The notes under the pieces: generated by a model
The model's input: the letters and a program-made list of their open reading frames with translations, nothing else
Databases searched by the model: none
Told to the model about the DNA's origin: nothing
Assembly (NCBI GenBank): GCA_964520655.1
Contig: CAZFNI010000007.1
Coordinates: forward strand, 6,398 to 70,397
DNA from: an uncultured Planctomycetales bacterium
GTDB lineage: Bacteria; Omnitrophota; Gorgyraeia; Zapsychrales; Fredricksoniimonadaceae
Direction: 5' to 3'
Length of the DNA: 64,000 bases
Part shown: positions 4,945-50,445 of the stretch, piece by piece
Layout: each line of letters opens with the position of its first letter
Position numbering within the stretch: position 1 is the stretch's first letter
Translations under genes and position numbers: made by a program

Positions 4945-6756
4945 ATGTCCGTGCGCAGAAAAGATGTCCTCATTGACGGCTTTTTCCTGTCGATCTTCCT
5001 TCTAATCTTCGTATCCTTCACCTGGGGCAAATGGATCCATCCGATCGTTGATTTCGGCCGAGAGGTTTATATCCCCTGGGCGATCGATCAGGGGGCCGTT
5101 CTCTACAAAGACCTGGCATTTCTTTTCGGTGCCTTGCCTCCTTACTGGAATGCTCTGCTATTTAAGATCTTTGGCGCGTCTTTGCAGACGATCCATGTTG
5201 TGGATGTGTTGGTAGTTTTTCTTTGCGCCGCATTGATCTATCGTTTTTTCTACTGCACCATGAACCGCTTGACAGCCTTCATGGTCACCCTCTCTTTTCT
5301 TATCCTGTTTGTCATGGATTTTTATTATTATGAATCCAATATGGCGTTTTTATCGCCATTCACGCACAGTTATTTTTACGCGTTCCTTTTTGTATTAGCG
5401 GCGGTCAATATCTGGCAATGTTTTCTCATGCGTCCAAGCAGGGCCTGGATATTTTTTTTAGGGATTTGCGTCGGCGGGGTTGTTGTATCACGGCTGGAGA
5501 TCGCGGCAGCATTCTTCGTGGCATTGTTGATCGGGTTTGCCTTTTATCTCCAGCGGTTAAAACCAGGATCACGGCAAACGCTGTATTATATGGGGTGTTT
5601 TATCGGGGGATTATTGACCCCGATCGCTTTGTTCTGGGCGTATTTCTTAATGTATTTACCGCCCTTACCCGCGTTTCTTTCCATCATTGGGTATAATCCT
5701 CAATGGCGTGAGGTAGGGGATCTGTATTTTTATCAATTCTTGGGAGGGTGGAACAACTGGGAGTTAAATGTGCTCTGGATGATCCGCAATTTGCTGGTTT
5801 ATGCGGCGCTGTATGCTTCATTTCATCTGATGCTGATCGCTCGTTTAAGCTTCAGTAAGAAAGAATGGCTGAAAGGTGTTTTCTCCTTCGCGATCTTTTG
5901 TATGGTCTACGGTGGGGTCGCGTTCTATATCAGTGATATATATGCCCGGGGTGTGTTTCGAGGCGCGATCCCGGTAGTGGCGGCGTTGATCGGGATCAGC
6001 CTGTTCAATATTTGCCAGAACAAAGAATGTGCCTGCCGCGACAGGCATTTGTCAATTGTGGTTTTGGCTGTCTTCGCGTTCTTGCTGATGTTCAAGGTCC
6101 CATTACAGTTGACCTTGCAGGACTATGCGCTGATCTACGGGATGTTTGGGGTGTTGATGTTCGTTGCCGGATGTGTGTATTATCTGCCGGAAAGATATCA
6201 ACAGTATCCAGGCGGGAGGAATTGGGTTGCGTTATTAGTTTGCGCGCTGCTGGTGCTGGTCATGGTGCGCGTCGGGATCGTTTCATGGGGAGGGTTATCC
6301 AGCAAGAAAACACTGGTTGGGAGAGGGGAAAATGTGCTATGGACGTTTGATAGTCCCGCGCCTTTTGGTTCCGGCGGCAGCGTGAAAAGTTTTCTGGACT
6401 GGTCCCGGGAACACTTTGCCCCTGAAGATACGTTTGTTGTTTTGCCGGAAGGAATAATGCTCAACTTTTTGACGGGGCATCGGATCACCGGCCGGCATGT
6501 CACATATATGCCGGCGGAAGTAACGACTTTTGGTGAAGCCAGCATGCTTCAAGAACTAAAAATGTCCCCGCCGGATTATGTGGTGGTTGTCGTCAAGCAG
6601 ACAAATGCCTATGGAGGACTGGACCTGGGCGTGAATTATTTAAATGATGTGTATAGATGGGTAAAGGATAACTATACCGTAGTATGGAGGTCGGGGAGCA
6701 AGAAGAAAGATAGTTTCCTGATGTCAGTGTATCAGAAAAAAGAGCGGAAGAGGTAG
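4945..6756 (+). CDS. Family A1: polytopic membrane protein, ArnT/PMT (GT-C)-like N-terminal loop, with a C-terminal soluble domain
   Basis: The ORF is open from GTG 4930. ATG 4945 (MSVRRKDVLIDG..) matches the paralog N-termini. Motif W.HP.VDFGREVYIPWAIDQGAVLYKDLAFLFGALPPYWNALLFKIFG is followed by many hydrophobic spans. C-terminal domain: FVVLPEGIMLNFLTGHRITGRHVTYMPAEV..FGE..ML..L...PPDYVVVV...N.YG....G.NY......W....Y..VW. Confidence 0.6.
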   Translation: MSVRRKDVLIDGFFLSIFLLIFVSFTWGKWIHPIVDFGREVYIPWAIDQGAVLYKDLAFLFGALPPYWNALLFKIFGASLQTIHVVDVLVVFLCAALIYRFFYCTMNRLTAFMVTLSFLILFVMDFYYYESNMAFLSPFTHSYFYAFLFVLAAVNIWQCFLMRPSRAWIFFLGICVGGVVVSRLEIAAAFFVALLIGFAFYLQRLKPGSRQTLYYMGCFIGGLLTPIALFWAYFLMYLPPLPAFLSIIGYNPQWREVGDLYFYQFLGGWNNWELNVLWMIRNLLVYAALYASFHLMLIARLSFSKKEWLKGVFSFAIFCMVYGGVAFYISDIYARGVFRGAIPVVAALIGISLFNICQNKECACRDRHLSIVVLAVFAFLLMFKVPLQLTLQDYALIYGMFGVLMFVAGCVYYLPERYQQYPGGRNWVALLVCALLVLVMVRVGIVSWGGLSSKKTLVGRGENVLWTFDSPAPFGSGGSVKSFLDWSREHFAPEDTFVVLPEGIMLNFLTGHRITGRHVTYMPAEVTTFGEASMLQELKMSPPDYVVVVVKQTNAYGGLDLGVNYLNDVYRWVKDNYTVVWRSGSKKKDSFLMSVYQKKERKR

Positions 6757-6760
6757 GCCC

Positions 6761-8566
6761 ATGTCGCCGCGAAAAACAGGATTGTTGTGGGATGCCGCGG
6801 TCCTTTTGACCGTAGCCGTTGTGTTTATCATATTGACTGGCGGAAAGTGGACCCATCCGGTCAATGATTTTGGCCGGGAAGTCTACATCCCCTGGGCGAT
6901 CGATCAGGGGGCGGTCCTTTATAAAGACCTGGCTTATCTTTTTGGTGCTTTGCCGCCCTGCTTAAATGCGCTGCTGTTTAAATTCTTTGGAGCTTCCTTA
7001 CAGACGATCCAACAATTTGATCTTTTGGTCGTCGCCCTGATGACCGCGTTGATCTACCGATTTTTCTATCTTGTCTGGTGCCGGTTATCCGCATTAGCTG
7101 CTGCGGCATCATTTTTAGTTCTTTTTGCTTTTGATTATCTGCCGTTTGGTTCAAACATGTATTATTTAAGCCCCTATTCTCACAGTTATTTCTATGCTGG
7201 ATTGTTTACCCTCGCGATCTTTAACACACTGGAGAAGTATTTTAAGGATCAGCGTAAGCGCTGGCTTTTATTGACAGGGGTTCTTTTAGGTGCGGCATTG
7301 TTGTCCCGTCTGGAGTTATTTATCATCATATTCATCGCATCGATGTTCGGGCTGGTGATCGATGCCTGTGCCAAGAACATGGCGCTGCGGGAAAGGTTCC
7401 GGAACTGGATGCTGGTGTTGGCGGGGGTTACGATCGCGGTCCTGCCGTTTTTGATATATTTCTCGATGCATATGCCCGTGTCAAAAGCGTTAATGTCGAT
7501 CGTCGGGTTTAATCCACAGTGGCAGCAGGTGTCTGGCATCTATTTGTATAGAAATCTGGCCGGGCTTATCCATGTTCCGATGAACCTGCAGATGTTGGGC
7601 ATCGTTCTGGGAGCATACGCGGCGTTGTATTTAGGATTGAACGCGCTTGGTCAGGCGTTTTTGCTGCGGCGCGCGGGGAGGGATCATTTTCAGGTATTTG
7701 TTCTGGGGGCGTATTTCTTTACGGTTTATGGGGCTGTGCTGTATGCGGTCAATCACGGCTGGGCGCATGAGATCTTTCGTGGAGCGGCCGTTTGTGTGAT
7801 CTTAGCCGGTATTCTGGCGTATAGAAAAATGCGTCAAGCGCAGGATGCGGATAGCCGCACCAGGGCGCTGCTGATGCTGATGTTCTGTCTTTTTGCCGGG
7901 CTGATGCTGTTTAAAGTGCCGCTGTCGATGAAATTATTCAATTACGCGCTTTTTTACGGCATGCCCGCGGGGCTTGTCACAGTTATCGTCTGGGTCAAGG
8001 TGGTCCCGCAGATCATGCAGGAACGCTATAAGTCGGGCGCTGTCAGTCAGCTGTTTGTCTTATTCTTGCTTGTCAGCGTCGGAATCCAGGTGTTTGGCGC
8101 GTCCATCCATGGGCTTGGGGCGAGACAAAAGAAAGTCGGTCTGGGTCCCAATGCGCTGTGGGCGTTGGACAGGACTTCACCGTGGGGCGCGGGTGATGAT
8201 GTGGATCTATTCCTGAAATGGGCCAAAGAAAATCTTAAGGCCGGCGAGCGCTTCGTGGTCCTGCCGGAAGGCATCATGCTGAACTTTTTAACGGGGCATA
8301 AGATCTCCGGCAGGCATTTAACGTTTATGCCGGCGGAGATGGTCACCTTTGGCGAGAAAAGCATGTTGGGGGCATTGACGGAAGATCCGCCGGAATACAT
8401 GGTGCTTGTCCATAAAAGCAATGCTGAATACGGAGGGATCGTCCTGGGGCAGAATTATGCGCTTGAGATAGTCGGTTGGTTGAAAGAACATTATCAGCGG
8501 GTATGGATCTCCCGGGAAAAAAGGCCGGGGAATTTTTCAATTGAGGTCTATCAACGAAGATCATGA
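6761..8566 (+). CDS. Family A2: polytopic membrane protein, ArnT/PMT (GT-C)-like
   Basis: 601 aa, with GGAAGAGG upstream. NDFGREVYIPWAIDQGAVLYKDLAYLFGALPPCLNALLFKFFGASLQTI is nearly identical to A1 at both protein and DNA level. The C-terminal FVVLPEGIMLNFLTGHKISGRHLTFMPAEMVTFGE...PPEYMVLV is conserved. Confidence 0.6.
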   Translation: MSPRKTGLLWDAAVLLTVAVVFIILTGGKWTHPVNDFGREVYIPWAIDQGAVLYKDLAYLFGALPPCLNALLFKFFGASLQTIQQFDLLVVALMTALIYRFFYLVWCRLSALAAAASFLVLFAFDYLPFGSNMYYLSPYSHSYFYAGLFTLAIFNTLEKYFKDQRKRWLLLTGVLLGAALLSRLELFIIIFIASMFGLVIDACAKNMALRERFRNWMLVLAGVTIAVLPFLIYFSMHMPVSKALMSIVGFNPQWQQVSGIYLYRNLAGLIHVPMNLQMLGIVLGAYAALYLGLNALGQAFLLRRAGRDHFQVFVLGAYFFTVYGAVLYAVNHGWAHEIFRGAAVCVILAGILAYRKMRQAQDADSRTRALLMLMFCLFAGLMLFKVPLSMKLFNYALFYGMPAGLVTVIVWVKVVPQIMQERYKSGAVSQLFVLFLLVSVGIQVFGASIHGLGARQKKVGLGPNALWALDRTSPWGAGDDVDLFLKWAKENLKAGERFVVLPEGIMLNFLTGHKISGRHLTFMPAEMVTFGEKSMLGALTEDPPEYMVLVHKSNAEYGGIVLGQNYALEIVGWLKEHYQRVWISREKRPGNFSIEVYQRRS

Positions 8567-8575
8567 TAAAACGTA

Positions 8576-10387
8576 ATGGATAAGAATAAACGGGACATAG
8601 CCCTGGATGCGGCATTTATTCTGATGGTCTTGGGTGGATTTGTGGCCGTGACCTGGGGCCGGTGGGCTCATCCGATCATTGATTACGGCCGCGAGGTGTA
8701 TGTCCCCTGGCGTATCACCGCGGGGGAGGTCTTATATAAGGACCTGGCTTATCTGTTCGGTGCTTTTCCGCCCTATTGGAATGCGCTGCTTTTTAAAGTG
8801 TTCGGCCCATCGATCGCCACCTTGACGGGATTCAACACCCTCCTGGCCCTGGCGGATGTGTTCTTGGTGTACCGGTTCCTGCTTCTGTCCGCCGATCGCT
8901 TGACCGCGCTTTTGGGCGCGGCTGGTTTTTTATTGCTGGCGGTCTGCAATCTGCACATGGCCTACAATATGTATTATTTGGCCCCCTATTCGCATAATGC
9001 CGCGTATGCGGTCTTTTTTGTTTTGTGCGCGTTAAATGTGCTGCCGTCGTTGTTGCGGATATTGGAGCACAGGGCATTCTTTTTATTGGGGCTTTTTCTC
9101 GCTGGAGCGTTGTTATCGAGGCTGGAAATATTCCTGGCCGCGGCGCTGGCGATCTTTACGGCTTTAGGGTTGTATTTTTGGAAATATTCAGTACAAAAAA
9201 ATAAAGCGTTCGCTTATATCGGCACGGCGGTGGCAGGCATTTTCTTTCCGGTATTTGTGTTCTGGGTGTATTTTGTGGCACACTTGCCGCCCTTAGAAGC
9301 ACTTTTTTCTATTATAGGCTATAACCCTCAGTGGCGAGAGGTGGCCCAAACAACACTGTATGCCAAGCAATATGCGGCGTGGCGGGAGAATGTCACGCTG
9401 ATGGCCATGGCGTTGGGAGGCAGCATGTTATTGATCGTCGGCATTGAGATATGCTGCCGGGGCATGATGTTATGGCAAAAGAGCAAAGAGCGGTTGAAAG
9501 CACTGTTGATGTGCGGTCTTTCTGTGTTGTTATATACAGGGGTTCTATATGTTTGCACGGGTGAGAATGTGTATGATGTGTTTCGGGGGCAGATCATCCT
9601 TCAGATCGTATTGGTCGTTTTTTGTTATAAAAGATTCCAGTCTTCCACTGGATTGGAAGATAATATCAGAACATTGTGCCTTTGGGTGTTGTGTGCCTGG
9701 GGGCTTTTCATGCTGGGGAAGATCCCCTTAAAATGTGTTGTCCGGGGCAGCGGCTTGATCTACGGGATCCCGGCGATGCTGACAGCGGTCGTTCTTTTCG
9801 CGTATCTTCTGCCGCAGCGGGCGCAAAGGCTTTACGGCCAGGGGCGTATTGCGGCAATAGCGGCAGCGCTGCTGCTGACATTTTTGTTCTGTCGGGTGTT
9901 GGCGTCTTCGTTGAATAACTTGTCGCTGCGTTTGAAGGCTGTCGGTCAGGGAGCCAATGCATTGCGGACCATTGATTACCCATTGCCATTCGGGCTTGGG
10001 ACCGACATTGAGAAATTCCTTTCTTGGTCGCGGGATCATTTGGGGAACAATGACACCTATGTTGTCCTGCCCGAGGGGGTCATGCTCAATTTCCTGACCC
10101 GTCACCGGATAACGGGCCAGCACATCACCTTTATGCCGGCGGAACTGGCAACGTTCACGGAAGAACGTATGCTGGCAGGGTTGAAGGATGTTCCGCCTGA
10201 TTATGTGGTCATTGTGAATAAGGATAATACGGCTTACGGGGATATGGTTTTTGGGAAGAATTACGCGCCGCGTCTTTATCAGTGGGTCATGACGCGGTAT
10301 TCGCCGGTCTGGGATTCCAGGGTTATCCCCAACCGGTATGCAGGCATAACGGTCTTCAAACGTCAGGAAATACAGGGGCATGAATAG
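8576..10387 (+). CDS. Family A3: polytopic membrane protein, ArnT/PMT (GT-C)-like
   Basis: 603 aa. Motifs: WAHPIIDYGREVYVPWRITAGEVLYKDLAYLFGAFPPYWNALLFKVFG and the C-terminal YVVLPEGVMLNFLTRHRITGQHITFMPAELATF...PPDYVVIV. Confidence 0.6.
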   Translation: MDKNKRDIALDAAFILMVLGGFVAVTWGRWAHPIIDYGREVYVPWRITAGEVLYKDLAYLFGAFPPYWNALLFKVFGPSIATLTGFNTLLALADVFLVYRFLLLSADRLTALLGAAGFLLLAVCNLHMAYNMYYLAPYSHNAAYAVFFVLCALNVLPSLLRILEHRAFFLLGLFLAGALLSRLEIFLAAALAIFTALGLYFWKYSVQKNKAFAYIGTAVAGIFFPVFVFWVYFVAHLPPLEALFSIIGYNPQWREVAQTTLYAKQYAAWRENVTLMAMALGGSMLLIVGIEICCRGMMLWQKSKERLKALLMCGLSVLLYTGVLYVCTGENVYDVFRGQIILQIVLVVFCYKRFQSSTGLEDNIRTLCLWVLCAWGLFMLGKIPLKCVVRGSGLIYGIPAMLTAVVLFAYLLPQRAQRLYGQGRIAAIAAALLLTFLFCRVLASSLNNLSLRLKAVGQGANALRTIDYPLPFGLGTDIEKFLSWSRDHLGNNDTYVVLPEGVMLNFLTRHRITGQHITFMPAELATFTEERMLAGLKDVPPDYVVIVNKDNTAYGDMVFGKNYAPRLYQWVMTRYSPVWDSRVIPNRYAGITVFKRQEIQGHE

Positions 10388-12743
10388 GAATTTAGTCACC
10401 GTCGGTGTCATTTCGTTTTCGGCCATCTTGTTCCAGATATGCGTCACGCGCATTCTGGCGGTGACCCTGTGGTATCATTTTGCTTTTCTGGTGATCTCGC
10501 TTTCGATGCTGGGGATGACGGCAGCCGCGATCGCCTGTTTTGTTTTTTGGCCGCGTGTCATAGAAACACAAAGCCGGCGGTATTTTATTATTTTTGCAGC
10601 CCTGTTCGCCTTGCTTGCGCCATTATCCGTTGCTGTTCATTTAAATATCAATTTTCAGGAAGTGGCGTTCAACACGGCCGGATTTTATGCGATCGCGATG
10701 CTCCAGCTGGTGTTTTTGGCGGCGGCGTTCTTCGCCGCAGGGATGGCGTTAAATATCATTTTGTTCAAAGAACAGGAACGGATCGGATTTGTCTATTTCT
10801 GTGATCTGATCGGCGCCGCGGCGGCAAGCCTTCTGGTCATGGCGCTGTTATATTGGGTCAGCCCTATCGCTGTTGTGTTTCTCATTTCATTTTTGTCCTT
10901 ATGGGCAGCCTATGTGCAGGCATCGCATCAGGGCTTACGCCTGGCGCTGCTTTTATCAGCGGGAGTGATGCTGGTATTATTCATCAACAATGACGCGTGG
11001 CATATCTTTAAGATCAGGGCCGTGAAAAGTTATGGGGAGAAAGCGTTCCAGGTGGAGGACAAACCTCTTTTGTTCGAGAAATGGTCGCCGTTCGCGCGTA
11101 CGACGGTGTACAGCCCGACCCGCCATGACAGCGGGACATTATCCATTGAGAATAATTCCGGCGCACCGGCGGCAATGTTCAAATATGACCCGATGCTTCC
11201 GCCAACCCAGCTGAGGACCAGGCTTTACGGTCTTCAGGAAATGGCTTTTGTCCTCAAGAAGAGCGATGAAGCCTTGATCATCGGCTCAGGCGGAGGGAGG
11301 AATTTGCTGGCAGCGTTGCTCTCGGGTCAGGGCCATATCACGGCGGTTGAGGTCAATCCGGTGACTGCGGAGATCGTTACAAAGGATTTTTCGGATTATA
11401 TCGGCCGCATCTTTGAGGATTCCCGCGTTACTTTTCATGTGCAGGAGGGGAGGAATTTCATTGCCCGTACCCAACAGTTGTACGATGTGATCAATATCTC
11501 CATGGTTGAGAGCTGGGGGAATCAGGCCGCGGCCAGCAATTCGTATATTTTTACCGAGAACACCTTGTACACCAGAGAAGCGGTCTGGGATTATGTGCGT
11601 CATTTAAACCCGCAGGGGATACTGAGCATCACCCGGTATGATGATTTTGATGAAGGCTTGCGTTTAGTGAACACGATGATCGACACGCTGCAGGAGAGAG
11701 GGGAAAAAGACCTTAAGGACCAGTTCGTCGTTGTGTTGGGCTACAAGTATCGGGGATCGGTGGGGCTAGCCAATGTCATGTACAAACGCGGCGGATTCAC
11801 CAGGGAAGATGTGGCCAGGATCAGGGATTTTACATCCCGTAACGGTTTTAAGATCATTTACGCGCCGTTCTTGCCGGAGGCAGCAATGAGCGCGCTTCCC
11901 CGGTCGGAATTTTACCGCAAGCTTATCCTCGGGAAAGACAGGAGGGATGATCTGGTGGCGCGGTATCCCCGGATCATCAGCCCATCCACGGACGACAAAC
12001 CATTTTTTTTCTACATGGACCGATTTAAGGATTCATTTGTGTTCAATGCCAATGAACATGCGGCCCGAAGACGCGCTATCCCGATATTGTATGGATTGTG
12101 TGCGGGGGTAGCGGTGCTTAGCCTGATCATGGTCTTTCTGCCGTTGTTAGTTTACCGCCGTACACGTTTAAGCACGCTGTTGCAATGCCGGGTGAATTTG
12201 CTTTATTTTGCAGCGCTGGGAACGGGGTTTATGTTCATTGAGTTATCCCTGATACAGCGACTGACTGTTTTTCTGGGGCATCCCATTTACGCCTTGATCG
12301 TGGTGTTGACCGCCTTGCTGTTAAGCAGCGCTATGGGGAGCTTCTTCTCAGGAAGGATCAAGCCTCTAATGAAAGAGAAGGTGCTTAAGGTTGTGCTGCT
12401 GGCGATCGCCCTCTGTGGCGTTCTTGTGGGGGGAATTATGTTCGATCACCTGGCGCGCTGGATGTATTTACAGCAGCCGCTGCGTGTCATCGTTGCTGTC
12501 GCGACCATCGTTCCTTTGGGGGCTATGCTGGGGATGTGTTTCCCGCTGGGTGTTCATTTGCTGCAGGAGAAGGACAGGCAGCTGATCGTATGGGCGTGGG
12601 GTATCAACGGGATATTTTCTGTCTTAGGATCGGTGCTGGCCATGGTGCTGGCACTGCATATGGGATTTAAAGCCGTGTTCTTGATCGGAGCGGCATGTTA
12701 TTGCGGGGCATGGTTGGCGGTCAAACGCATGGGGAATCAATGA
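10380..12743 (+). CDS. Spermidine-synthase-like (class I SAM/dcSAM-binding fold) domain flanked by two multi-span membrane domains (787 aa)
   Basis: The central domain LIIGSGGGRNLLAALLSGQGHITAVEVNPVTAEIV...RVTFHVQEGRNFIARTQQLYDVINISMVESW resembles the SpeE-type aminopropyltransferase core. Hydrophobic segments lie on both sides (about 200 aa at the N-terminus and about 220 aa at the C-terminus). Overlaps the upstream gene by 8 nt. Confidence 0.65.
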   Translation: MNRNLVTVGVISFSAILFQICVTRILAVTLWYHFAFLVISLSMLGMTAAAIACFVFWPRVIETQSRRYFIIFAALFALLAPLSVAVHLNINFQEVAFNTAGFYAIAMLQLVFLAAAFFAAGMALNIILFKEQERIGFVYFCDLIGAAAASLLVMALLYWVSPIAVVFLISFLSLWAAYVQASHQGLRLALLLSAGVMLVLFINNDAWHIFKIRAVKSYGEKAFQVEDKPLLFEKWSPFARTTVYSPTRHDSGTLSIENNSGAPAAMFKYDPMLPPTQLRTRLYGLQEMAFVLKKSDEALIIGSGGGRNLLAALLSGQGHITAVEVNPVTAEIVTKDFSDYIGRIFEDSRVTFHVQEGRNFIARTQQLYDVINISMVESWGNQAAASNSYIFTENTLYTREAVWDYVRHLNPQGILSITRYDDFDEGLRLVNTMIDTLQERGEKDLKDQFVVVLGYKYRGSVGLANVMYKRGGFTREDVARIRDFTSRNGFKIIYAPFLPEAAMSALPRSEFYRKLILGKDRRDDLVARYPRIISPSTDDKPFFFYMDRFKDSFVFNANEHAARRRAIPILYGLCAGVAVLSLIMVFLPLLVYRRTRLSTLLQCRVNLLYFAALGTGFMFIELSLIQRLTVFLGHPIYALIVVLTALLLSSAMGSFFSGRIKPLMKEKVLKVVLLAIALCGVLVGGIMFDHLARWMYLQQPLRVIVAVATIVPLGAMLGMCFPLGVHLLQEKDRQLIVWAWGINGIFSVLGSVLAMVLALHMGFKAVFLIGAACYCGAWLAVKRMGNQ

Positions 12744-19570: not shown

Positions 19571-19788
19571 TCCTAAAGATATTATTGCGCAATGCGCTGC
19601 TGTTCTTGATCGCGGCAGCCCTGCTCTCAAAAAGCGTTGATCGGCAGGAATGTTTTATCAAGCGCGGAAAATATTTATTAGGGATCGTTTATAACGGTTT
19701 TTTCCAGAATGAGCGCGACAAGATCGTGTACGAGGATTATTTAAAGCGGCATGGCAGCTCCCCTGAGATATTCCAAAAGGGGTTATAA
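19567..19788 (+). CDS. Small hypothetical protein (73 aa) with a hydrophobic N-terminus
   Basis: ATG 19567 forms an ATGA overlap with the stop of the upstream gene. It reads MILKILLRNALLFLIAAALLSKSVDRQECFIKRGKYLL... I recognise no motif. The longer track ORF from 19369 lies inside the upstream CDS. Confidence 0.35.
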   Translation: MILKILLRNALLFLIAAALLSKSVDRQECFIKRGKYLLGIVYNGFFQNERDKIVYEDYLKRHGSSPEIFQKGL

Positions 19789-27410: not shown

Positions 27411-27752
27411 ATGGAAAAGATCATTCTGGGAATAGTCCAAACGATATTGTGCCCGCAATTCGCGGCTGATGCTAACCATCATCACGTGACGCATACGGCG
27501 GAAGTGCTTTACCGCAAGATCATGGCCATGCCGTTGTTGCTGCGTCTGGCCATGTCCGTGCTGTTATATGTTTTTAACGGATACGGGGTTTTGCTGGGCG
27601 GACATTTGTTTGAGAACCATGTCCCCCAAAACAAAGCTAAACAGTTAAGCCAATGGCAGAACAGCCCGATCGCCCCTTGCCGTGAAGCAATGTCTTTTTT
27701 TTATAAAATGACTTTTTTTATTTATTTCTCCTTATGCCCAAAGATCGATTAA
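27411..27752 (+). CDS. Small hypothetical membrane-associated protein (113 aa)
   Basis: The ORF is open from TTG 27396, with ATG at 27411. It has a hydrophobic core (PLLLRLAMSVLLYVFNGYGVLLGG) and overlaps the following GMC oxidoreductase gene by 19 nt. I recognise no motif. Confidence 0.4.
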   Translation: MEKIILGIVQTILCPQFAADANHHHVTHTAEVLYRKIMAMPLLLRLAMSVLLYVFNGYGVLLGGHLFENHVPQNKAKQLSQWQNSPIAPCREAMSFFYKMTFFIYFSLCPKID

Positions 27753-44860: not shown

Positions 44861-45323
44861 ATCTTTTGATGTCTTTGATCCGGTCTTTACCGGTTTATTA
44901 GCTGCCGCGGCGATCCTGTGCGCGATGGAAATGCTCATTATCGCCGGTGTTGTTTTGTTCTATATCCCCTTTACGCCTGACCCATCCCTGCAGGATATAT
45001 TCTTCCATTACCGCAAAGGATATGTTCCCGAGCAGGAATTATTATTGTACGGCGTTGGGATCGCGATGGCGGTGGTCTTCTTTGTCGGCGCTGCGATCGT
45101 TTTTGCGCGGCGCGTTTCGGATGTTTTGTTTCAAAGGTCATTGATACGTTATGCGGTGGTGCATACGGCCGTTGTGATTTCGATGACGGCATGTGTTTTT
45201 AAATTGATCGTCACACCGTCGGATGGCATCGCGTGGGCATGTCTTTATACAATGTTGGGCGTTTCTTTGGGACTTAACATATTTTGGAGCGAGATCGATC
45301 AATGGTTTGGGCGGACCTTTTAG
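44850..45323 (+). CDS. Family C4, N-terminal fragment (157 aa) of a split or frameshifted gene
   Basis: It aligns with the first ~150 aa of other family C proteins (..IPFTPDPSLQDIFFHYRKGYVPEQELLLYGVGIAMAVVFF.. and ..NIFWSEI..). It ends at TAG 45321-45323, exactly where the paralogs continue. Confidence 0.5.
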   Translation: MKNKSFDVFDPVFTGLLAAAAILCAMEMLIIAGVVLFYIPFTPDPSLQDIFFHYRKGYVPEQELLLYGVGIAMAVVFFVGAAIVFARRVSDVLFQRSLIRYAVVHTAVVISMTACVFKLIVTPSDGIAWACLYTMLGVSLGLNIFWSEIDQWFGRTF

Positions 45324-47068
45324 CGGTTCTCGGGATCTTTCTGGTGCTGTTCATCCCTGACCCGTCGTCGACGGTGGCGCAGCTGTTCTTGGGCGACTAT
45401 TTCCATGACTGGGATGTGGTCTTCATGGGGCCGGTCTACGGATTGTTCTGCGATCTTGTTCCCAACATCGATGTCAATACGACCTATGGGTTTGGATTAA
45501 GTCTGCTCATCAAGTGGGGGATGCAGCTTTTGGGCGGATTTGATTATACGCATGCGCTTGTCGTATTAGTCTGGCTGGGAATTATTTATTTTGTCGCCTG
45601 GTATTTTTTGCTGCGCCGGCTGTTTGAGCATCGGCTGCTGGCCTTTATCGCCATTTTGCTTGGCATGCGTTTTCAGATGTTTGTTTCGATCCTGATCCCC
45701 ATCGTCTGGAACGATATCCAATGCTCAGTGCTGCGTTTTTATTTTGACGCGGCCTTTTTCTGGAGTTTATACCTGCATCAGAACAAAGGTGGTCAGCGTT
45801 ATCTTTGGCTCATGGGGTTATCTGCGGCGCTGGGGATCTTCCATATGCCGACCATGGGGATATTTTTAGCGATGACCATGGTCGTTTATCTGGCCTTCTT
45901 GACCCTTGATGGATATTTTAAGGAAGGGATGAAATCCTTGGGCTCAGCGGCCTCCAATGCCCGGCCTTTGATCTTTATCCCGGTCGTCGTCTTCATCTTG
46001 TATTATGCCATTGTTAGGGACCATATTTTCACCGGAACATTCTGGGCCAACACCGCCGGATTCGCGTCCTATTTTGCTAAAGGATTTTTCTATAGCCCGA
46101 TGCTTGACCCGCTTAAACGGGGCAATTATCTGATGGTCATCGGCGGGATCTTGATCCCGCTGTGGTATCTGTTCTGCCTGTTCTTTTTCGGCTGGCGCTA
46201 TCTTACCCCTGCCAGAAGATCCAGGGATATATGGATCGTTCTGCTGTCCGTGTATGGTCTGGGGATATTCACGTATTTTGTCGGGATGTCCCATAAATAT
46301 TCGACGGTGTCTCTGCCGGCGACATTTGTTTCCTTTCTTGTCCTTGATGAGATCTTGGCCCGCGCCTCGCGGCACTGGAAATTCCGGATCACGTGGACTT
46401 TGCTTGCGGTGAGTATTTATGCTCTTGCGGTCGAGCCTATGTTCAAGGCCTACCCCAACTGGCTTAATATTTCCCGCGATCCGGTCGTTGACGAGCGCGT
46501 GACCATGAAAACTCCCAATGGAAAACCGTATTTTCAGCAGCTGGCCATCGATTTCCCAGAGTGGATCAAGGTCCCCTTCAATTCGCTGGGGGAGACGGAT
46601 GAGAAGTTCAAATATGAGAAAGATTTCGTCAACAGCGACGCGTTAAAGTCCTATTACCGTCTGGAGACCGCGTTTGTCGAGGACGCGGGCTTGATCCGTC
46701 GTTTGACCAGCCCCGGCGACAGGGTGGCCTTATTATCCAGTTTTGAGGTGATGATCCTTTCTAAAGCACAGCGTAAACCACTGTTCTATTATTTCCCATT
46801 GCTTAATTCCCATCCCATGCGCATGCGAAATTTCGTGGTCACGACCATATTTAGCTACCCGCAATTGCGCCAGAGCATTGACCAGTTAAACGCGGCCATG
46901 CCGCCCTATATTTTTATGGAGAAGGTGTTCTTGACGGAGCAGGTCCACCCCTGGTATTTTGAACAATTCGAGGATTTGATCGCGCTGATCCGCTGGATCA
47001 AATATTATTATACGCCGGTCGAACAGGGCAAATACTTGGTGGCCATGAAAAGGAAGACCGATGGTTGA
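45302..47068 (+). CDS. Family C4, remainder (about 588 aa) of a split or frameshifted gene
   Basis: A different frame is open from 45284, with ATG at 45302 (MVWADLLAVLGIFLVLFIPDP..). It carries the loop motif QLFLGDYFHDWDVVFMGP....DVNTTYGFGL, then GMRFQMF. The C-terminus is VALLSSFEVMILSKAQRKPLFYYFPL....MPPYIFMEKV....YYTPVEQGKYLVAMKR. Confidence 0.55.
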   Translation: MVWADLLAVLGIFLVLFIPDPSSTVAQLFLGDYFHDWDVVFMGPVYGLFCDLVPNIDVNTTYGFGLSLLIKWGMQLLGGFDYTHALVVLVWLGIIYFVAWYFLLRRLFEHRLLAFIAILLGMRFQMFVSILIPIVWNDIQCSVLRFYFDAAFFWSLYLHQNKGGQRYLWLMGLSAALGIFHMPTMGIFLAMTMVVYLAFLTLDGYFKEGMKSLGSAASNARPLIFIPVVVFILYYAIVRDHIFTGTFWANTAGFASYFAKGFFYSPMLDPLKRGNYLMVIGGILIPLWYLFCLFFFGWRYLTPARRSRDIWIVLLSVYGLGIFTYFVGMSHKYSTVSLPATFVSFLVLDEILARASRHWKFRITWTLLAVSIYALAVEPMFKAYPNWLNISRDPVVDERVTMKTPNGKPYFQQLAIDFPEWIKVPFNSLGETDEKFKYEKDFVNSDALKSYYRLETAFVEDAGLIRRLTSPGDRVALLSSFEVMILSKAQRKPLFYYFPLLNSHPMRMRNFVVTTIFSYPQLRQSIDQLNAAMPPYIFMEKVFLTEQVHPWYFEQFEDLIALIRWIKYYYTPVEQGKYLVAMKRKTDG

Positions 47069-48308
47069 ACGAAAGATCATCAGCATCATTACAGCCTTGG
47101 TACTCGTCGAGTCCTTGCAGGCGCTTGCGTTGATCGCGCATATTTATAGTTTTATCCCCATCTCCCTCAAAGGCCCGATCCTGCCAGGGCTTGAGCCGGA
47201 AAGGGAGAGTTTTCTCTACATCATTTTCCTGGCCATGGTTTTTGTGCTGACGATCGTGCTGACGGCGCTGTTATATAAGCCGCTTAAGTCCGCTGCTTTT
47301 CAACAGAGAGCATTGAAGTTCGTATATTTGGAAACGCTCTGGATGGGACTGATGCTGTTTGCCTTCTTTAAATGGGTAAGCTACCAGCATCCTTTCTATA
47401 ATATTCTGCCGCTGGAGAACGGACGATGGGTATATCCGTTCTTTTACGCAGTTGCCTTTTTAAGCTTTTTGACAAAGATATTCTGGGCGGAGATCGTCAG
47501 GTTTTGGGAGAGCTGGGAACAGGGGCGGGGCCGCAGACTGGTGACAAAAGAAAAACCATTGGCTGTTTATGCCGCCGGGATAATGTTTGCGGCCGCATTG
47601 TTGTACCCCAATGTGCCGCTTGCCTCGCAGGTCATTGCCTCCTGGAGCCGTTTTGCGCCATGGCAGAATTTCTGGCTGACGCGTTTTTTTCTTGAACGGG
47701 GATTCTCTCCTGAGGCGATCATTGCGTGTTTATACGGTCTTAATATGATCGTCCTGGGCGTGATCTTTGTCGGAGCGCATCGCTACTTGAAGAATTCCTG
47801 GCTGGCCTTTGGTGTCCTCATGCTGACGATCCAAATGACGTTTTTCCATTACGGCACATCACCGGTGTGCTGGAATGCTCCGCAGAATACGCTCATCAAT
47901 TTCGGCTGGGACTTTGGCTTTATGAAAGACGCCGCGCATTTGCCCATGTTCGCTGCCTTGCGTGTGCGCCAGTTTCTTTCATTCTTTATGGGATATGCCA
48001 TCGCGGTGTTGTATGTCTTCTCTATATTATATTGCTGGGGCAAAGATAGAATGGCGGTGATCTTAAGTGGCCTTGGCTTACTCTTATATACCCGCTATAT
48101 CGCCCATGCCGATGTATTTGCTTTTGGGGCGGCATCCTTCCCGGCAATGATCTTGTCTGCGCACTGGTTGAGAATTGTAATAAGGCGATTTTTTCCCAAA
48201 CAGGAAAATGCTGTTTATATCGCGCTTGCCGCAACGTCAGTTTTCATGCTGTTAACCAACCGGGTATTTGTGACCTACCCGCATTTTTGGATGAACAATG
48301 TTCCATAA
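47061..48308 (+). CDS. Family C5: truncated or degenerate member (415 aa) with the membrane domain only
   Basis: The N-terminus is colinear with family C (..FIPISLKGPILPGLEPERESFLYIIFLAMVFVL.., ..KIFWAEI.., ..TIQMTFFHYGTSPVCW..). It lacks the (E/D)Q.HH.D loop segment. It stops at ..FVTYPHFWMNNVP, which is where the C-terminal soluble domain begins in the paralogs. Confidence 0.5.
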   Translation: MVERKIISIITALVLVESLQALALIAHIYSFIPISLKGPILPGLEPERESFLYIIFLAMVFVLTIVLTALLYKPLKSAAFQQRALKFVYLETLWMGLMLFAFFKWVSYQHPFYNILPLENGRWVYPFFYAVAFLSFLTKIFWAEIVRFWESWEQGRGRRLVTKEKPLAVYAAGIMFAAALLYPNVPLASQVIASWSRFAPWQNFWLTRFFLERGFSPEAIIACLYGLNMIVLGVIFVGAHRYLKNSWLAFGVLMLTIQMTFFHYGTSPVCWNAPQNTLINFGWDFGFMKDAAHLPMFAALRVRQFLSFFMGYAIAVLYVFSILYCWGKDRMAVILSGLGLLLYTRYIAHADVFAFGAASFPAMILSAHWLRIVIRRFFPKQENAVYIALAATSVFMLLTNRVFVTYPHFWMNNVP

Positions 48309-50445
48309 AGAAGATCTTAAGATCAGCGTATTGAGTATCTGCAGCGCGATGCAAGTGGCCGTGCTCGTGGCCCAGGCACTGTCAGCGTTGAATGCGGCCT
48401 CTGGGGTTTATGACGGCATTGTCTATGTCGCTTTTTTGGTCAGTAGTGTCTTTGTGTTCGCTCTGTTAAAAAAGCAGCGGGACTTAGCTTGGAATGTGTG
48501 GATGGAAATGCTGGTGACGTTTCTGTTGCTAAGCGCTGTCTTTAAAAGCACCATCTATGACAATAGTCCGTTTCTGGCCAATGCCGCTGTGCTTTCGCTG
48601 CTTACGATCGCGGCTGCGATAAAAGTATTCTCGCTTGAGATATCGTCGGGATTGTTAAGGCTATCCGCGAAAGCGCGTGTAATGTCGTCATTTGGGCCGA
48701 TCGCTTCCTGTGCCGCCATCGCCGCATTGGTCTATGTGCCCAATCTAAATGCGGTGCTGGCGGAGGTCTTTATCGGCGAGCAGGCGCATCATTTGGACTT
48801 TTTTGTGATGTCTCCGGGATGGTCATGTTTTAACGGCGGTAAGCCCTACGTGGATGTGATCTCTCAATACGGGGTGGGCATACCGGTTATTTTTGCTAAC
48901 TTAAGCCGCATTCTTGGCGGGTTTGATTATTTGACCTTCCTTCAGGTGAACATGGCTTTCGGTATCTTGTATTTTATATTGTTCTTTTGGGTGACGCGCG
49001 CATGGCTTGGCAGCACGATGCTTGGGTTTGCCGCATTCCTGGTGTGTTTTCGTCTGCAAATGTTCCATTACGGGGTCAGCCCCCTGTGCTGGATCTATCC
49101 ATCCTCAACACCTATCCGTTTTGGGCTGGACATCCTCTGGTTGTGGCTGTTGTGGCGCCATCTGCAGACCGGCAGGGGGATCTTTCTGATCTTAGCCGCT
49201 TTGTACAGCGGGTTTGCTGTTTATTTCATGACATCGACGGGTATTTTTATCATGGTCACGTTCTACGCATATTTAGCAGGGCTGCTGGTACTGCAAGGAC
49301 TCCGCAAAGAAAAAATATTATCGCCCAGGCTTATGGCAGCGGCTGCTATCATCCCCGTGGTATCGGCCTTTGTATTCTTTTGGATCACCCTGGGTGGACA
49401 TGTTGTCAGTCAAACGTTCTGGCGGAATGTCGTCGAGTATATGTCATATTTCTCCAACGGACGCGGCGCTTTGCCTATCTTTGAAAGTTTGAAATACCGC
49501 AACTATTGGGTCGCGCTGATGGCTCTGGCTGTTCCTTTATTGTATGTGGCGACCGCCGTCAGCGTCGGGATCGCGTTATGGAAAGAAAAAGTCGATCGCA
49601 AATATTTGTTTGTTGTCACGATCGCGGTCTATGGGTTGGTCAATTATCAATATTTCGTTGTGCGTTCGGCGATGACCAGTTATTACAGCAATGCGGTGCC
49701 TTTCGTGCTACTGTGCGCGTTCTGGGCTGACATTGCCGTCAAACATTACATGCCGGCGAAAAAGGGGAAGATCTACGGACTGTGCGCCATTCTGGCCTTC
49801 TATGCACTGGCCACCAATCACAATTACATCAGCTATCCCAATCTGTTCAATTTCAGCCGTAACCCTTTGGTTGACATCACCGTGGCCCAGCGTTTCCCTG
49901 ACCGGCAGGGCTATTTCCATCATTTGGTCAAACATATCAAGGAAGAGGATAAGGTCGCCTTTAATGCGGCGGGCGACGGGGACGAGCATTTGATGACGGA
50001 GGATAGCTTTAAGACGGATAAGGAGTTGATCGATTTTGTTAAAAGCGAGAATGATTTCAGCCTCGATGCCGCGCTGATCGATTCTCTTGTGTCTTCCAAA
50101 GAACCCACGGCGGTCTTAAGCAGTTTTGAAACGAAGATCCTGATCCAGGCCAAGCGGGCGCCGTTCTTTTACCATACACCGCTTATCACCTCCCAGCCGA
50201 TGCGGGTGCGCTACTTTCCGGCGGATGCCGCGCACAGTCCAAGTTTTTTGGCAGACACACTGCGCCAGCTGGAGGATAAGAAACCGGCTTATGTATTTAT
50301 CGAGAATGTCTTTTTGCAGGAGATCATTCCGGCAAGCTACAGGGAGTCAAACGCAAATATATTGACAATCATCGCCTATATCAGGCAGAATTATACCCCT
50401 TTTAAGAGGGGACAGTATTTGACAGCAATGAAGAGACATGAATAA
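48298..50445 (+). CDS. Family C6: uncharacterised large polytopic membrane protein (715 aa); last gene of the array
   Basis: Motifs: EVFIGEQAHHLDFFVMSPG....YVDVISQYGVGIP and CFRLQMFHYGV. The C-terminus is TAVLSSFETKILIQAKRAPFFYHTPL....KPAYVFIENV....NYTPFKRGQYLTAMKR. Confidence 0.6.
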   Translation: MFHKEDLKISVLSICSAMQVAVLVAQALSALNAASGVYDGIVYVAFLVSSVFVFALLKKQRDLAWNVWMEMLVTFLLLSAVFKSTIYDNSPFLANAAVLSLLTIAAAIKVFSLEISSGLLRLSAKARVMSSFGPIASCAAIAALVYVPNLNAVLAEVFIGEQAHHLDFFVMSPGWSCFNGGKPYVDVISQYGVGIPVIFANLSRILGGFDYLTFLQVNMAFGILYFILFFWVTRAWLGSTMLGFAAFLVCFRLQMFHYGVSPLCWIYPSSTPIRFGLDILWLWLLWRHLQTGRGIFLILAALYSGFAVYFMTSTGIFIMVTFYAYLAGLLVLQGLRKEKILSPRLMAAAAIIPVVSAFVFFWITLGGHVVSQTFWRNVVEYMSYFSNGRGALPIFESLKYRNYWVALMALAVPLLYVATAVSVGIALWKEKVDRKYLFVVTIAVYGLVNYQYFVVRSAMTSYYSNAVPFVLLCAFWADIAVKHYMPAKKGKIYGLCAILAFYALATNHNYISYPNLFNFSRNPLVDITVAQRFPDRQGYFHHLVKHIKEEDKVAFNAAGDGDEHLMTEDSFKTDKELIDFVKSENDFSLDAALIDSLVSSKEPTAVLSSFETKILIQAKRAPFFYHTPLITSQPMRVRYFPADAAHSPSFLADTLRQLEDKKPAYVFIENVFLQEIIPASYRESNANILTIIAYIRQNYTPFKRGQYLTAMKRHE

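What the first reader, a model, noticed from the sequence alone, without database searches (positions are those of the whole stretch)
4945..50445. A ~45-kb single-strand gene array dominated by 15 paralogous polytopic membrane proteins from only three families
Between 4945 and 50445 all 27 ORFs are on the + strand. The largest gaps are 79, 70 and 44 nt, and most junctions abut or overlap.

Fifteen of the ORFs are 415-865-aa multi-span membrane proteins that sort by eye into three families:
- Family A (4945, 6761, 8576, 12740) has an ArnT/PMT-like first loop, D.GRE.Y....G..LYKD.AYLFGA.PPYWNALLFK.FG.
- Family B (17507, 20713, 31113, 35905, 42359) is YfhO-like, with QGGVQL.D.FD.FN, HWIN.LTNPF.FL.RS.H and the C-terminal W...VDG.......G.H....Y motif.
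- Family C (29062, 33688, 39895, 44850/45302, 47061, 48298) is unassigned.

The remaining genes fit lipid-carrier-dependent extracytoplasmic modification: an LtaS-like sulfatase, SGNH hydrolase, FkbM methyltransferase, GT2-like/methyltransferase fusion, AsnB amidotransferase, SDR, FAD and GMC oxidoreductases, and a membrane SpeE-like protein. A DPM1/GtrB-type GT2 lies just outside the array at 50876-51598.

A typical envelope locus has one or two GT-C enzymes. Sixteen such proteins in one window (counting 1-412), maintained as diverged paralogs, is highly unusual. It suggests a combinatorial or multi-substrate surface glycosylation or polymer-assembly machine.
Basis: partly seen in the sequence, partly recalled or inferred. 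Interest (0 to 1): 0.85.

Follow-up and report, generated by a model that had tools for sequence, protein, structure and literature searches.

The report
Fifteen-gene GT-C glycosyltransferase array in Omnitrophota
A 45-kb one-strand gene block from a Candidatus Omnitrophota-like bacterium encodes fifteen membrane glycosyltransferases of the lipid-carrier-dependent "GT-C" fold in three families, one of them an un-annotated family found so far only in that lineage, which points to an unusually elaborate sugar-coating pathway acting outside the cytoplasmic membrane.

Summary
From 4945 to 50445, 27 ORFs lie on the + strand, mostly overlapping or abutting. Fifteen gene units fall into three paralog families: A x4, B x5, C x6.

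All three families are GT-C glycosyltransferases.
- **Family A** is a divergent PMT_2 branch: 26 of 37 proteins in the alignment of the four window copies and 33 homologs hit PF13231.

Family C was found in 23 loci of species-representative genomes, all Omnitrophota MAGs or MAGs labelled Planctomycetales. It always occurs as tandem multi-copy arrays, often interleaved with family B.

Most B and C paralogs have their own ortholog elsewhere (46-74% identity, against 23-35% between window paralogs). The duplications are therefore old and maintained, and this is not a misassembly.

The "combinatorial" reading is not, because no switching signatures were found.

The acceptor, the donors and the transcript structure remain untested. 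I rate this a new variant of a known kind, of moderate-to-high interest.

The parts
1..412 (-). 5' part (137 aa) of a divergently transcribed PMT_2-like GT-C gene; it carries a family-A-like first-loop motif (D-H-G-R-D ... Y-K-D ... F-K-L-F-G)
   Evidence: The ortholog in L001 (518 aa) has a weak PF13231 hit.
533..2980 (+). Secreted or anchored repeat protein rich in Cys/Ser/Thr/Gly (815 aa, 11% Cys) with one thrombospondin-type-1-like WxxWxxC...CG motif; candidate glycosylation acceptor (inference)
   Evidence: No Pfam hit at E<=10.
3166..4887 (+). Paralog of 533-2980 (573 aa, 13% Cys), with DCNGVCNGGAxxDxCGVCGG repeats and a TSR-like motif
4945..6756 (+). Family A GT-C (PMT_2-like), copy 1
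6761..8566 (+). Family A GT-C, copy 2
8576..10387 (+). Family A GT-C, copy 3
10380..12743 (+). Membrane protein with about 17 TM segments and a central spermidine-synthase-like (aminopropyl/methyltransferase-fold) domain
12740..14566 (+). Family A GT-C, copy 4
14571..16529 (+). Membrane-anchored alkaline-phosphatase-superfamily enzyme (LtaS/EptA-type architecture; Pfam Sulfatase E 1e-32)
   Evidence: It co-occurs with family A homologs in L027.
16504..17505 (+). Anchored protein of 333 aa, weakly SGNH/GDSL-like
   Evidence: 25.9 bits, far below the curated cutoff. No Pfam hit.
17507..19570 (+). Short, divergent family B (YfhO-type) GT-C
19555..19788 (+). Small ORF (77 aa) with one N-terminal hydrophobic helix
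   Evidence: no family hit.
19868..20719 (+). FkbM-type methyltransferase
   Evidence: Conserved next to the 17507-type gene in L011, L013, L022 and L024.
20713..23196 (+). Family B GT-C (YfhO-like)
23241..24662 (+). FAD-dependent amine-oxidase-like oxidoreductase
24676..25452 (+). Short-chain dehydrogenase/reductase
25460..27340 (+). AsnB-type glutamine amidotransferase
   Evidence: Conserved in L004 and L005.
27411..27752 (+). Small hydrophobic protein paired with the GMC oxidoreductase
27734..29065 (+). GMC-family flavin oxidoreductase
   Evidence: Conserved directly upstream of the first family C gene in L003-L005.
29062..31116 (+). Family C GT-C, copy 1
31113..33701 (+). Family B GT-C; this is the copy modelled with AlphaFold
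33664..35904 (+). Family C GT-C, copy 2 (= P0042); this is the copy modelled with AlphaFold
35905..38502 (+). Family B GT-C
38499..39902 (+). Class I SAM methyltransferase with a weak N-terminal GT2-like region
39895..42372 (+). Family C GT-C, copy 3 (with an extra TM insertion)
42359..44860 (+). Family B GT-C, the most divergent full-length copy
44850..45323 (+). Stand-alone N-terminal 4-TM module of family C (first half of a split gene)
45302..47068 (+). Family C GT-C core lacking the N-module (second half of the split gene)
   Evidence: The same split occurs in L004, and a fused form exists as P0120.
47061..48308 (+). Degenerate family C copy with no EL1 loop and no C-terminal domain; probably non-catalytic
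48298..50445 (+). Family C GT-C, last copy
50876..51598 (-). Soluble GT2; its best similarities are to polyprenyl-phosphate sugar synthases (PgfS, PpgS, AglJ, ArnC), so it is a possible donor-charging enzyme
   Evidence: all hits below curated cutoffs. Conserved at this site only in L019.

Best explanation
The block is an envelope-glycosylation supercluster of a Candidatus Omnitrophota-type bacterium. Fifteen GT-C-fold membrane glycosyltransferase gene units are present, fourteen of which retain the first-loop acidic residue. I propose they act on the outer face of the cytoplasmic membrane and use polyprenyl-phosphate-linked sugars as donors.

Because most paralogs are old and individually conserved, each most likely performs a distinct, non-redundant transfer. 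Together they would build or decorate one or a few defined, complex surface glycoconjugates.

The interspersed enzymes would tailor the donors or the product:
- the LtaS/EptA-like phosphotransferase;
- two methyltransferases;
- the AsnB-type amidotransferase;
- the FAD, SDR and GMC oxidoreductases;
- the SGNH-like protein;
- the membrane SpeE-like protein.

Shown computationally: the fold of families B and C; homology of A to PMT_2 and of C to A; retention and predicted outward position of the acidic loop; conservation, synteny and antiquity of the paralogs.

Inferred: the donor type, sequential action, the tailoring roles and the acceptor.
For: Fold and homology:
- Family A: 26 of the 37 proteins in the alignment of window copies plus homologs hit PMT_2.
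- A vs C by HHalign: 93% probability, E 2.6e-7, 501 columns including the C-terminal domain.

Catalytic features:
- The first-loop acidic residue is kept in every full-length copy.
- It is predicted to lie outside the membrane by the positive-inside rule.

Conservation:
- All 23 family C loci found in other genomes carry tandem C arrays, often together with B.
- Orthologs are 46-74% identical (one exception at 32%), against 23-35% between in-window paralogs, and they hold conserved positions.

Supporting context:
- A GT2 of the polyprenyl-phosphate-sugar-synthase type lies next door.
- In L027 a GT2 overlaps the start of a family A homolog.
- YfhO-type GT-C enzymes work in multi-component GT2 + flippase + GT-C systems (PMC5836110, PMC8035078).
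Against: - No biochemical or expression data exist.
- No GtrA/GtcA-type or Wzx-type flippase was detected in the window.
- The adjacent GT2 is on the other strand and is not consistently linked to the array in other genomes.
- The four window family A proteins do not themselves reach Pfam PMT_2 at E<=0.01.
- Family B matches the YfhO model only over its last 60-85 residues.
- Array composition varies between genomes (C-only runs in L018 and L020), so the product is unlikely to be identical across the lineage.
Confidence: 0.7

Rival explanations
1. The machine is a dedicated protein-glycosylation system. Its acceptors would be the two secreted Cys/Ser/Thr-rich repeat proteins encoded at the head of the block (533-2980, 3166-4887). 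PMT-like family A enzymes would O-glycosylate Ser/Thr, and possibly a DPY19-like activity would modify the Trp of the WxxWxxC motif. This is a more specific version of the main explanation, not a contradiction of it.
For: - Both proteins are co-directional with the array, lie immediately upstream of the four family A genes, and are conserved there in the close relative.
- They have an N-terminal hydrophobic helix, 15-22% Ser+Thr and internal repeats.
- Their WxxWxxC...CG..G...R.C motif aligns with thrombospondin type-1 repeats at 41% identity over 37 aa, pairwise E 2e-4.
- The best structural match of family C is a protein O-mannosyltransferase.
- DPY19 C-mannosyltransferases are GT-C enzymes that act on WxxW/C sequons (PMC10154233).
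Against:
- Cys-rich proteins were seen only in the window and its near-identical relative.
- The family A module in L027 has no such neighbour.
- In L011, L013 and L015 the B/C array begins directly beside the divergent PMT_2-like gene, so B/C arrays exist without these proteins.
Confidence: 0.2
2. The paralogs provide combinatorial or switchable surface variation. Alternative GT-C enzymes would be expressed or used in different cells to vary the surface, as with phage-encoded Gtr serotype-conversion systems.
For: - There are many paralogs of the same fold in a single locus.
- Array composition differs between genomes.
- The close relative carries an inserted ATPase + HNH endonuclease gene pair inside the array.
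Against: - No homopolymer or short-repeat tracts occur at gene starts, and the only tandem repeats in 1-52000 lie inside the two Cys-rich protein genes upstream of the array.
- Paralog DNA is too diverged for recombination: at most 77% over 232 nt.
- Most paralogs have a positional ortholog at 46-74% identity in other genomes. That is the signature of fixed, differentiated functions.
- Most genes overlap their neighbours, which suggests co-expression.
Confidence: 0.07
3. Many of the proteins are not enzymes. They would be GT-C-fold scaffolds, lipid-carrier binders or recyclers, or transporters.
For: - 47061 lacks the catalytic loop and the periplasmic domain, yet it is conserved.
- Fused and split forms suggest multi-subunit complexes in which some subunits could be structural.
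Against: - All 14 other gene units keep the first-loop Asp, which is invariant across family alignments: D36 in A, D201 in C.
- The top structural matches are catalytic transferases.
- No transporter fold scores above the GT-C hits.
Confidence: 0.05
4. The array is an assembly artefact, produced by collapsed or duplicated reads or by chimeric binning.
For: The window comes from a metagenome-type assembly. Exact look-ups of two window proteins found no record.
Against: - Paralogs are only 22-44% identical in protein and show no near-identical DNA.
- The same gene order is found in an independent 578-kb contig.
- The same order also appears at about 60% identity in L003 and L004, the latter a 1.34-Mb contig.
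Confidence: 0.01

Closest known systems
Multi-component transmembrane glycosylation systems of Firmicutes (CsbB/GtrB-type GT2 + GtcA/GtrA flippase + YfhO/GtlA-type GT-C), which glycosylate teichoic acids (PMC5836110, PMC8035078)
   Same: - Family B carries the YfhO C-terminal domain above Pfam's threshold and has a GT-C fold.
- A small soluble GT2 of the polyprenyl-phosphate-sugar-synthase type lies beside the array.
- A GT2 is translationally coupled to a family A homolog in L027.
   Different: - The window has five YfhO-like genes plus ten GT-C gene units of other families, instead of one GT-C.
- No GtrA-like flippase was found.
- Family B matches the YfhO model only at its C-terminus.
- The host is a PVC-related lineage, presumably diderm, with no known teichoic acids.
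PMT_2 / GT39 / GT83 enzymes (protein O-mannosyltransferases Pmt1/2/4, bacterial PMT, ArnT)
   Same: - Homologs of family A hit PF13231, and some are named GT39 or ArnT-like.
- A conserved Asp follows the first core TM helix.
   Different: - The window family A proteins fall below the Pfam threshold.
- No MIR domain is present. Families A and C share their own C-terminal alpha/beta domain of about 130-150 aa.
- Family C has an extra 4-TM N-terminal module that can be encoded as a separate gene.
Mycobacterial arabinogalactan/LAM GT-C set (AftA-EmbC-EmbA-EmbB cluster, AftB, AftD, PimE); the gene arrangement is stated from my own knowledge
   Same: - Several GT-C enzymes use a polyprenyl-phosphate sugar to build a complex envelope polymer step by step outside the membrane.
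- They are partly clustered and form hetero-oligomers (EmbA-EmbB).
- An FAD oxidoreductase plus SDR pair in the window recalls the DprE1/DprE2 epimerisation of the lipid-linked donor. This is an analogy only.
   Different: - There is no sequence-level relationship.
- The window has 15 genes in one co-directional block, against about 4 in mycobacteria.
- The families are different, and the acceptor and sugars are unknown.
DPY19 tryptophan C-mannosyltransferases acting on thrombospondin repeats (PMC10154233)
- Two upstream secreted proteins carry a WxxWxxC...CG motif that resembles the DPY19 sequon context.
   Different: - There is no specific similarity to DPY19 beyond the shared fold.
- The TSR-like motif is not significant against Pfam.
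- The link is purely positional.

Membership tests
GT-C glycosyltransferase superfamily (fold level) | Polytopic N-terminal membrane domain whose helices superpose on solved GT-C enzymes | tested here: met
- Family A was not modelled. It is linked by HHalign to family C (93%) and by PMT_2 hits in the family alignment.
GT-C glycosyltransferase superfamily (fold level) | Conserved acidic residue in the first extracytoplasmic loop, facing outward | tested here: met
   - The Asp is invariant across family alignments (D36 in A, D201 in C).
- It is kept in all full-length window copies and absent only from 47061.
- The outward position is inferred from model helices plus the positive-inside rule. 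It was not measured.
GT-C glycosyltransferase superfamily (fold level) | Use of polyprenyl-phosphate-linked sugar donors; transferase activity | not testable with these tools
   Only indirect evidence: an adjacent GT2 with sub-threshold similarity to polyprenyl-phosphate sugar synthases, and GT2-family A coupling in L027.
Pfam PMT_2 (PF13231), for family A | A significant match of the protein itself to the PMT_2 model | tested here: not met
   The four window proteins give no hit at E<=0.01. 26 of the 37 proteins in the alignment of window copies plus homologs do hit (best E 5.9e-9). Family A is therefore a divergent relative and not a scored member.
Pfam YfhO (PF09586), for family B | Whole-protein score above the gathering threshold (28.5 bits) | tested here: met
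   Scores are 31.6-46 bits for all five copies. The match covers only model positions ~750-835, the C-terminal domain. The membrane domain does not align with the model.
Pfam / NCBIfam / PDB-sequence families, for family C | Any significant sequence-profile match | tested here: not met
   - No Pfam hit for the window copies, for 15 database homologs or for 10 long representatives.
- No NCBIfam hit.
- No PDB sequence hit at E<=10.
- The family is nevertheless populated: 1,283 50%-identity representatives at E<=1e-3.
Three-component GtrA/GtrB/GtrC-type glycosylation system | GT2 polyprenyl-phosphate sugar synthase encoded with the GT-C | tested here: inconclusive
   A GT2 lies at 50876-51598, but on the opposite strand and outside the block. 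It is conserved there only in L019. A coupled GT2 occurs in L027.
Three-component GtrA/GtrB/GtrC-type glycosylation system | Small 4-TM GtrA/GtcA-type flippase | tested here: not met
   - No PF04138 hit in any ORF.
- The 4-TM N-module of family C and the small ORFs give no GtrA hit at E<=10.
Single operon | One transcript covering 4945-50445 | not testable with these tools
   - Sixteen overlapping junctions and six gaps of 13 nt or less are compatible with co-transcription.
- Promoter and terminator scans are uninformative.
- The close relative tolerates a 2-gene insertion inside the block.

The most novel reading that the evidence does not exclude
Family C arrays would be an Omnitrophota-specific periplasmic glycan assembly line. 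Ten or more individually conserved GT-C enzymes, some working as hetero-oligomers with degenerate or split subunits, would build a complex surface glycoconjugate almost entirely from lipid-phosphate sugars outside the membrane. This would take the place of the usual cytoplasmic GT-A/GT-B plus Wzx/Wzy route. In the window lineage it would glycosylate thrombospondin-repeat-like Cys-rich surface proteins, possibly including the first bacterial Trp C-glycosylation. Such a coat could underlie host attachment in these ultra-small, host-dependent bacteria.
Probability: 0.15. Interest if true: 0.85.

Novelty: new variant of a known kind. Interest (0 to 1): 0.62.

Why it matters
GT-C enzymes are usually found singly or in pairs, and to my knowledge the richest well-studied cluster is the mycobacterial Emb/Aft cluster. 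A conserved block of fifteen would be an extreme of this enzyme class, if it holds up.

The block also includes an un-annotated family: about 1,300 50%-identity clusters in metagenomes, with no Pfam or NCBIfam model. In the species-representative genomes scanned here it was found only in the Omnitrophota lineage.

Together these point to a complex and so far uncharacterised surface chemistry in a phylum of ultra-small, largely uncultured, host-dependent bacteria.

The work gives annotators a new GT-C family to model. It gives structural biologists naturally split, fused and degenerate GT-C subunits to study. It gives Omnitrophota researchers a concrete locus, and two candidate glycoproteins, to look at in enrichment-culture transcriptomes and glycoproteomes.

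Tried and rejected
1. **PDB sequence searches.** Profiles of A, B and C gave zero hits at E<=10. Only fold comparison worked.
2. **Shallow profile comparison.** Window paralogs alone gave A vs C at just 25% probability. It became convincing only with database homologs added. A vs B and C vs B stayed at noise, so B is related to A and C only at fold level.
4. **N-module as a fused GtrA-type flippase.** No Pfam support at E<=10. I dropped the idea for lack of evidence, but it is not disproved.
5. **Domain fusions as functional clues.** The long family C representatives are only self-fusions (N-module + partial core + full core) with no foreign domain.
6. **Cys-rich proteins against Pfam at E<=10 and against PDB.** Nothing found.
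7. **Cys-rich neighbours in other arrays.** None found, although most loci do not reach the head of the array.
8. **Promoter and terminator scans.** Results were near shuffle expectation and confounded by T-rich membrane-protein codons.
9. **Exact-sequence look-ups of window proteins.** Not on record, so the source contig could not be named.
10. **B-C heterodimer idea based on alternating gene order.** Weakened, because other genomes have C-only runs (L016, L018, L020).
11. **Rfam and tRNA scans of the window.** No matches.
12. **Literature.** Two Omnitrophota genome preprints and the YfhO/GT-C papers do not describe such arrays.

Full report
**1. The observation**

Listing ORFs and inspecting every junction confirms the layout. 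From 4930/4945 to 50445 all long ORFs are on the + strand.
- With the 77-aa ORF at 19555-19788 there are 27 genes.
- Sixteen junctions overlap, six have gaps of 13 nt or less, and four have gaps of 44-79 nt.
- AT skew over the block is strongly negative, -0.1 to -0.28. I read this as T-rich membrane-protein codons.

- Family A: 4945, 6761, 8576, 12740, at 37-44% identity.
- Family B: 20713, 31113, 35905 at 30-33%; 42359 at 22-24%; 17507 similar only at the C-terminus.
- Family C: 29062, 33664, 39895, 45284/45302, 48298 at 26-35%, plus the 157-aa 44850 and the truncated 47061.

The quoted motifs are all in the family consensus sequences.

The "1-412" protein is real but lies on the minus strand. 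It is the first 137 aa of a PMT_2-like protein with a family-A-like loop, whose 518-aa ortholog is seen in a related genome.

**2. Not an artefact**

- The strongest DNA similarity between any two paralogs is 77% over 232 nt.
- A closely related genome (GCA_041910255.1, a 578-kb contig, 93-100% protein identity) carries the same genes in the same order.
- More distant genomes (about 60% identity) reproduce the order C-B-C-B-methyltransferase-C-...-small C-C-truncated C.

**3. What the three families are**

*Family A.*
- It has no Pfam or NCBIfam hit of its own and no PDB sequence hit.
- A database search found 41 relatives, some named GT39 or ArnT-like.
- In the alignment of the four window copies with 33 of those relatives, 26 of the 37 proteins hit PF13231 PMT_2.

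*Family B.*
- It hits Pfam YfhO above the gathering score, but only over the last 60-85 residues.
- It has just 11 close relatives before a gap to ordinary YfhO proteins.
- Its AlphaFold model (31113; pLDDT 83.3, pTM 0.85) has about 13 TM helices, a beta-rich C-terminal domain and a final TM helix.
- Foldseek agreed but only weakly.

*Family C.*
- It has no Pfam, NCBIfam or PDB-sequence match.
- With homolog-enriched alignments, family C is a remote homolog of family A: HHalign probability 93%, E 2.6e-7, 501 columns, running from the first loop to the end of the shared C-terminal alpha/beta domain.
- B is related to A and C only at fold level.

**4. Catalytic features**

- Every full-length copy keeps the acidic residue of the first core loop:
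  - D-[F/Y]-G-R-E in family A;
  - the D of Q-G-G-x-Q-L-x-D in family B;
  - [E/D]-x-x-x-H-x-x-D in family C.
- These Asp residues are invariant across the wider family alignments.
- On the family C model, the distribution of Lys/Arg in the loops fits an N-in topology with five helices before the acidic/His loop, which places that loop outside. This is an inference.
- 47061 lacks this loop and the C-terminal domain. It matches only profile positions 5-185, 241-316 and 426-554, so it is probably non-catalytic.

**5. Modular oddities in family C**

- Family C has an extra 4-TM N-terminal module.
- In the window it is encoded separately once, as 44850, followed by the module-less core 45284/45302.
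- The same split, followed by the same truncated copy, is present in L004.
- A fused version exists elsewhere: P0120 matches 44850 at 31% over residues 1-151 and 45284 at 51% over residues 295-872.
- Other long representatives (up to 1,166 aa) are N-module + partial core + full core fusions without foreign domains.
- I infer from this that the pieces function together as complexes.
- The N-module shows no GtrA or other family signal.

**6. Distribution and age**

- A scan of 185,579 species-representative genomes with a family C motif found 23 loci. Thirteen are labelled Candidatus Omnitrophota, and ten are labelled "uncultured Planctomycetales" in third-party assemblies.
- Every locus has two to eight family C genes in tandem on one strand, often interleaved with family B.
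- An exhaustive HMMER search found 1,283 50%-identity representatives at E<=1e-3, and 400 at E<=1e-30.
- Nearly every window B or C paralog has its own ortholog elsewhere at 46-74% identity, against 23-35% to its best in-window paralog. The exception is 42359, whose best match elsewhere is 32%.
- The duplications are therefore ancient and each copy is maintained.

**7. Accessory genes and modules**

Confirmed:
- a membrane LtaS/EptA-type alkaline-phosphatase-family enzyme;
- an FkbM methyltransferase;
- a class I methyltransferase;
- an FAD amine-oxidase-like enzyme;
- an SDR;
- an AsnB-type amidotransferase;
- a GMC oxidoreductase with a small hydrophobic partner;
- a ~17-TM protein with a SpeE-like domain.

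The SGNH call and the GT2-fusion call are weak.

Across genomes:
- The GMC pair, AsnB, FkbM and the methyltransferase recur with the B/C arrays.
- The genes after the last C copy (tRNA-binding protein, CxxCxxCC protein, LPG_synthase_C-like protein) mark a conserved 3' boundary.
- The GT2 at 50876-51598 (minus strand) recurs at that boundary only in L019. Its best NCBIfam similarities are to PgfS, PpgS, AglJ and ArnC, all below the curated cutoffs.

In L011, L013 and L015 the divergent PMT_2-like gene abuts the 17507-type gene directly. The segment 533-17505 therefore looks like a module added in the window lineage. It holds the two Cys-rich proteins, four family A genes, and the SpeE-like, LtaS-like and SGNH-like genes.

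Part of that module recurs in an unrelated metagenome contig, L027: two family A homologs, an LtaS-like gene (44% identity) and a GT2 whose stop overlaps the family A start.

**8. Mechanism proposed**

*Shown by computation:* fold, homology, loop conservation, predicted orientation, synteny and antiquity.

*Inferred from what is known of GT-C enzymes and of YfhO-type multi-component systems (PMC5836110, PMC8035078):*
- Cytoplasmic GT2 enzymes charge a polyprenyl phosphate with sugar.
- The lipid-linked sugars are flipped by an unidentified flippase.
- The fourteen catalytically intact GT-C units each add a sugar to a specific acceptor position outside the membrane.
- The phosphotransferase, methyltransferases, amidotransferase and oxidoreductases tailor the donors or the product.

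Individually conserved paralogs argue for a fixed multi-step pathway and against a variable one. No phase-variation features were found.

*The acceptor is unknown.* The two upstream secreted repeat proteins are attractive candidates.
- They are rich in Cys, Ser, Thr and Gly.
- The association is seen only in this lineage, however.

**9. Comparison with known systems and novelty**

The components belong to known kinds: the GT-C superfamily, the PMT_2 relatives and the YfhO relatives.

What is new:
- **(i) Family C.** It is a populated but unmodelled GT-C family that, in the genomes scanned, is confined to the Omnitrophota lineage. It has its own N-module and a C-terminal domain shared with family A.
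- **(ii) The scale.** Fifteen GT-C gene units sit in one co-directional 45-kb block, with a sixteenth divergent one beside it. The arrangement is conserved across a lineage.
- **(iii) Subunit variants.** Split, fused and degenerate GT-C subunits occur naturally.

The literature searches found no description of such arrays.

I rate it a new variant of a known kind, with interest 0.62.

The window's origin in Omnitrophota is an inference from its closest relatives and from shared flanking genes.

Noticed in passing
window 533-2980 and 3166-4887 (+): Two paralogous secreted or anchored proteins with 11-13% Cys. One has tandem ~47-aa repeats (CGGSxNTC...GSPSGY...); the other has 31-aa repeats (DCNGVCNGGAxxDxCGVCGG). 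Each has one thrombospondin-type-1-like WxxWxxC...CG..G...R.C motif. No Pfam hit at E<=10.
   Followed up: partly
window 1-412 (-): Start of a divergently transcribed PMT_2-like GT-C gene with a family-A-like first loop. In other Omnitrophota loci (L011, L013, L015) this gene directly abuts the 17507-type gene, which suggests that 533-17505 is an inserted module.
   Followed up: partly
window 44850-45323 / 45284-47068 / 47061-48308; L004 18573-22028: One family C gene is split into an N-module ORF and a core ORF, followed by a truncated copy lacking the catalytic loop. The same three-ORF arrangement is conserved at ~74% identity in a 1.34-Mb contig. Fused versions exist in metagenomes (P0120, P0149 and others).
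   Followed up: yes
L026 1-1512 (GCA_041910255.1, JAYRRC010000016.1): The near-identical relative has an AAA_14/DUF4143 ATPase gene and an HNH endonuclease gene inserted between the ortholog of 20713 and the FAD oxidoreductase. This is a mobile-looking insertion inside the array that the window lacks.
   Followed up: no
window 10380-12743 (+): A 787-aa protein with about 17 predicted TM segments on both sides of a central spermidine-synthase-like domain, embedded between family A genes. Its role in a glycosylation locus is unexplained; it could be aminopropyl or methyl transfer onto the product.
   Followed up: no
window 27411-29065 (+); L003, L004, L005: A GMC flavin oxidoreductase with a small hydrophobic partner ORF is conserved (60-77% identity) immediately upstream of the first family C gene in several genomes. 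This suggests a sugar-oxidation step tied to the family C array.
   Followed up: partly
window 23241-25452 (+): An adjacent FAD oxidoreductase and SDR pair. By analogy only, this recalls the DprE1/DprE2 two-step epimerisation of a lipid-linked sugar donor in mycobacteria.
   Followed up: no
window 50530-53006 (+): A tRNA-binding-domain protein, a CxxCxxCC protein and a stand-alone LPG_synthase_C-like protein form a conserved 3' boundary of the array in L007, L019, L020 and L023.
   Followed up: partly
window 56005-57462 (+): An HTTM-domain (vitamin-K-dependent gamma-carboxylase-like) membrane protein, followed by a signal-peptide protein with no family hit. It appears unrelated to the array.
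   Followed up: no
L027 3158-5661 (Logan SRR26978870): In an unrelated metagenome contig, a GT2 gene overlaps by 4 nt the start of a family A homolog. An LtaS-like gene and a second family A homolog lie nearby. This is a compact version of the family A module.
   Followed up: partly
window 33454-33701: The longest ORF for the second family C gene starts 210 nt too early. The database protein (P0042, 746 aa) and the alignment support the ATG at 33664, which overlaps the upstream gene by 38 nt. Similar corrections apply to the starts at 23241, 24676, 14571 and 38499.
   Followed up: yes
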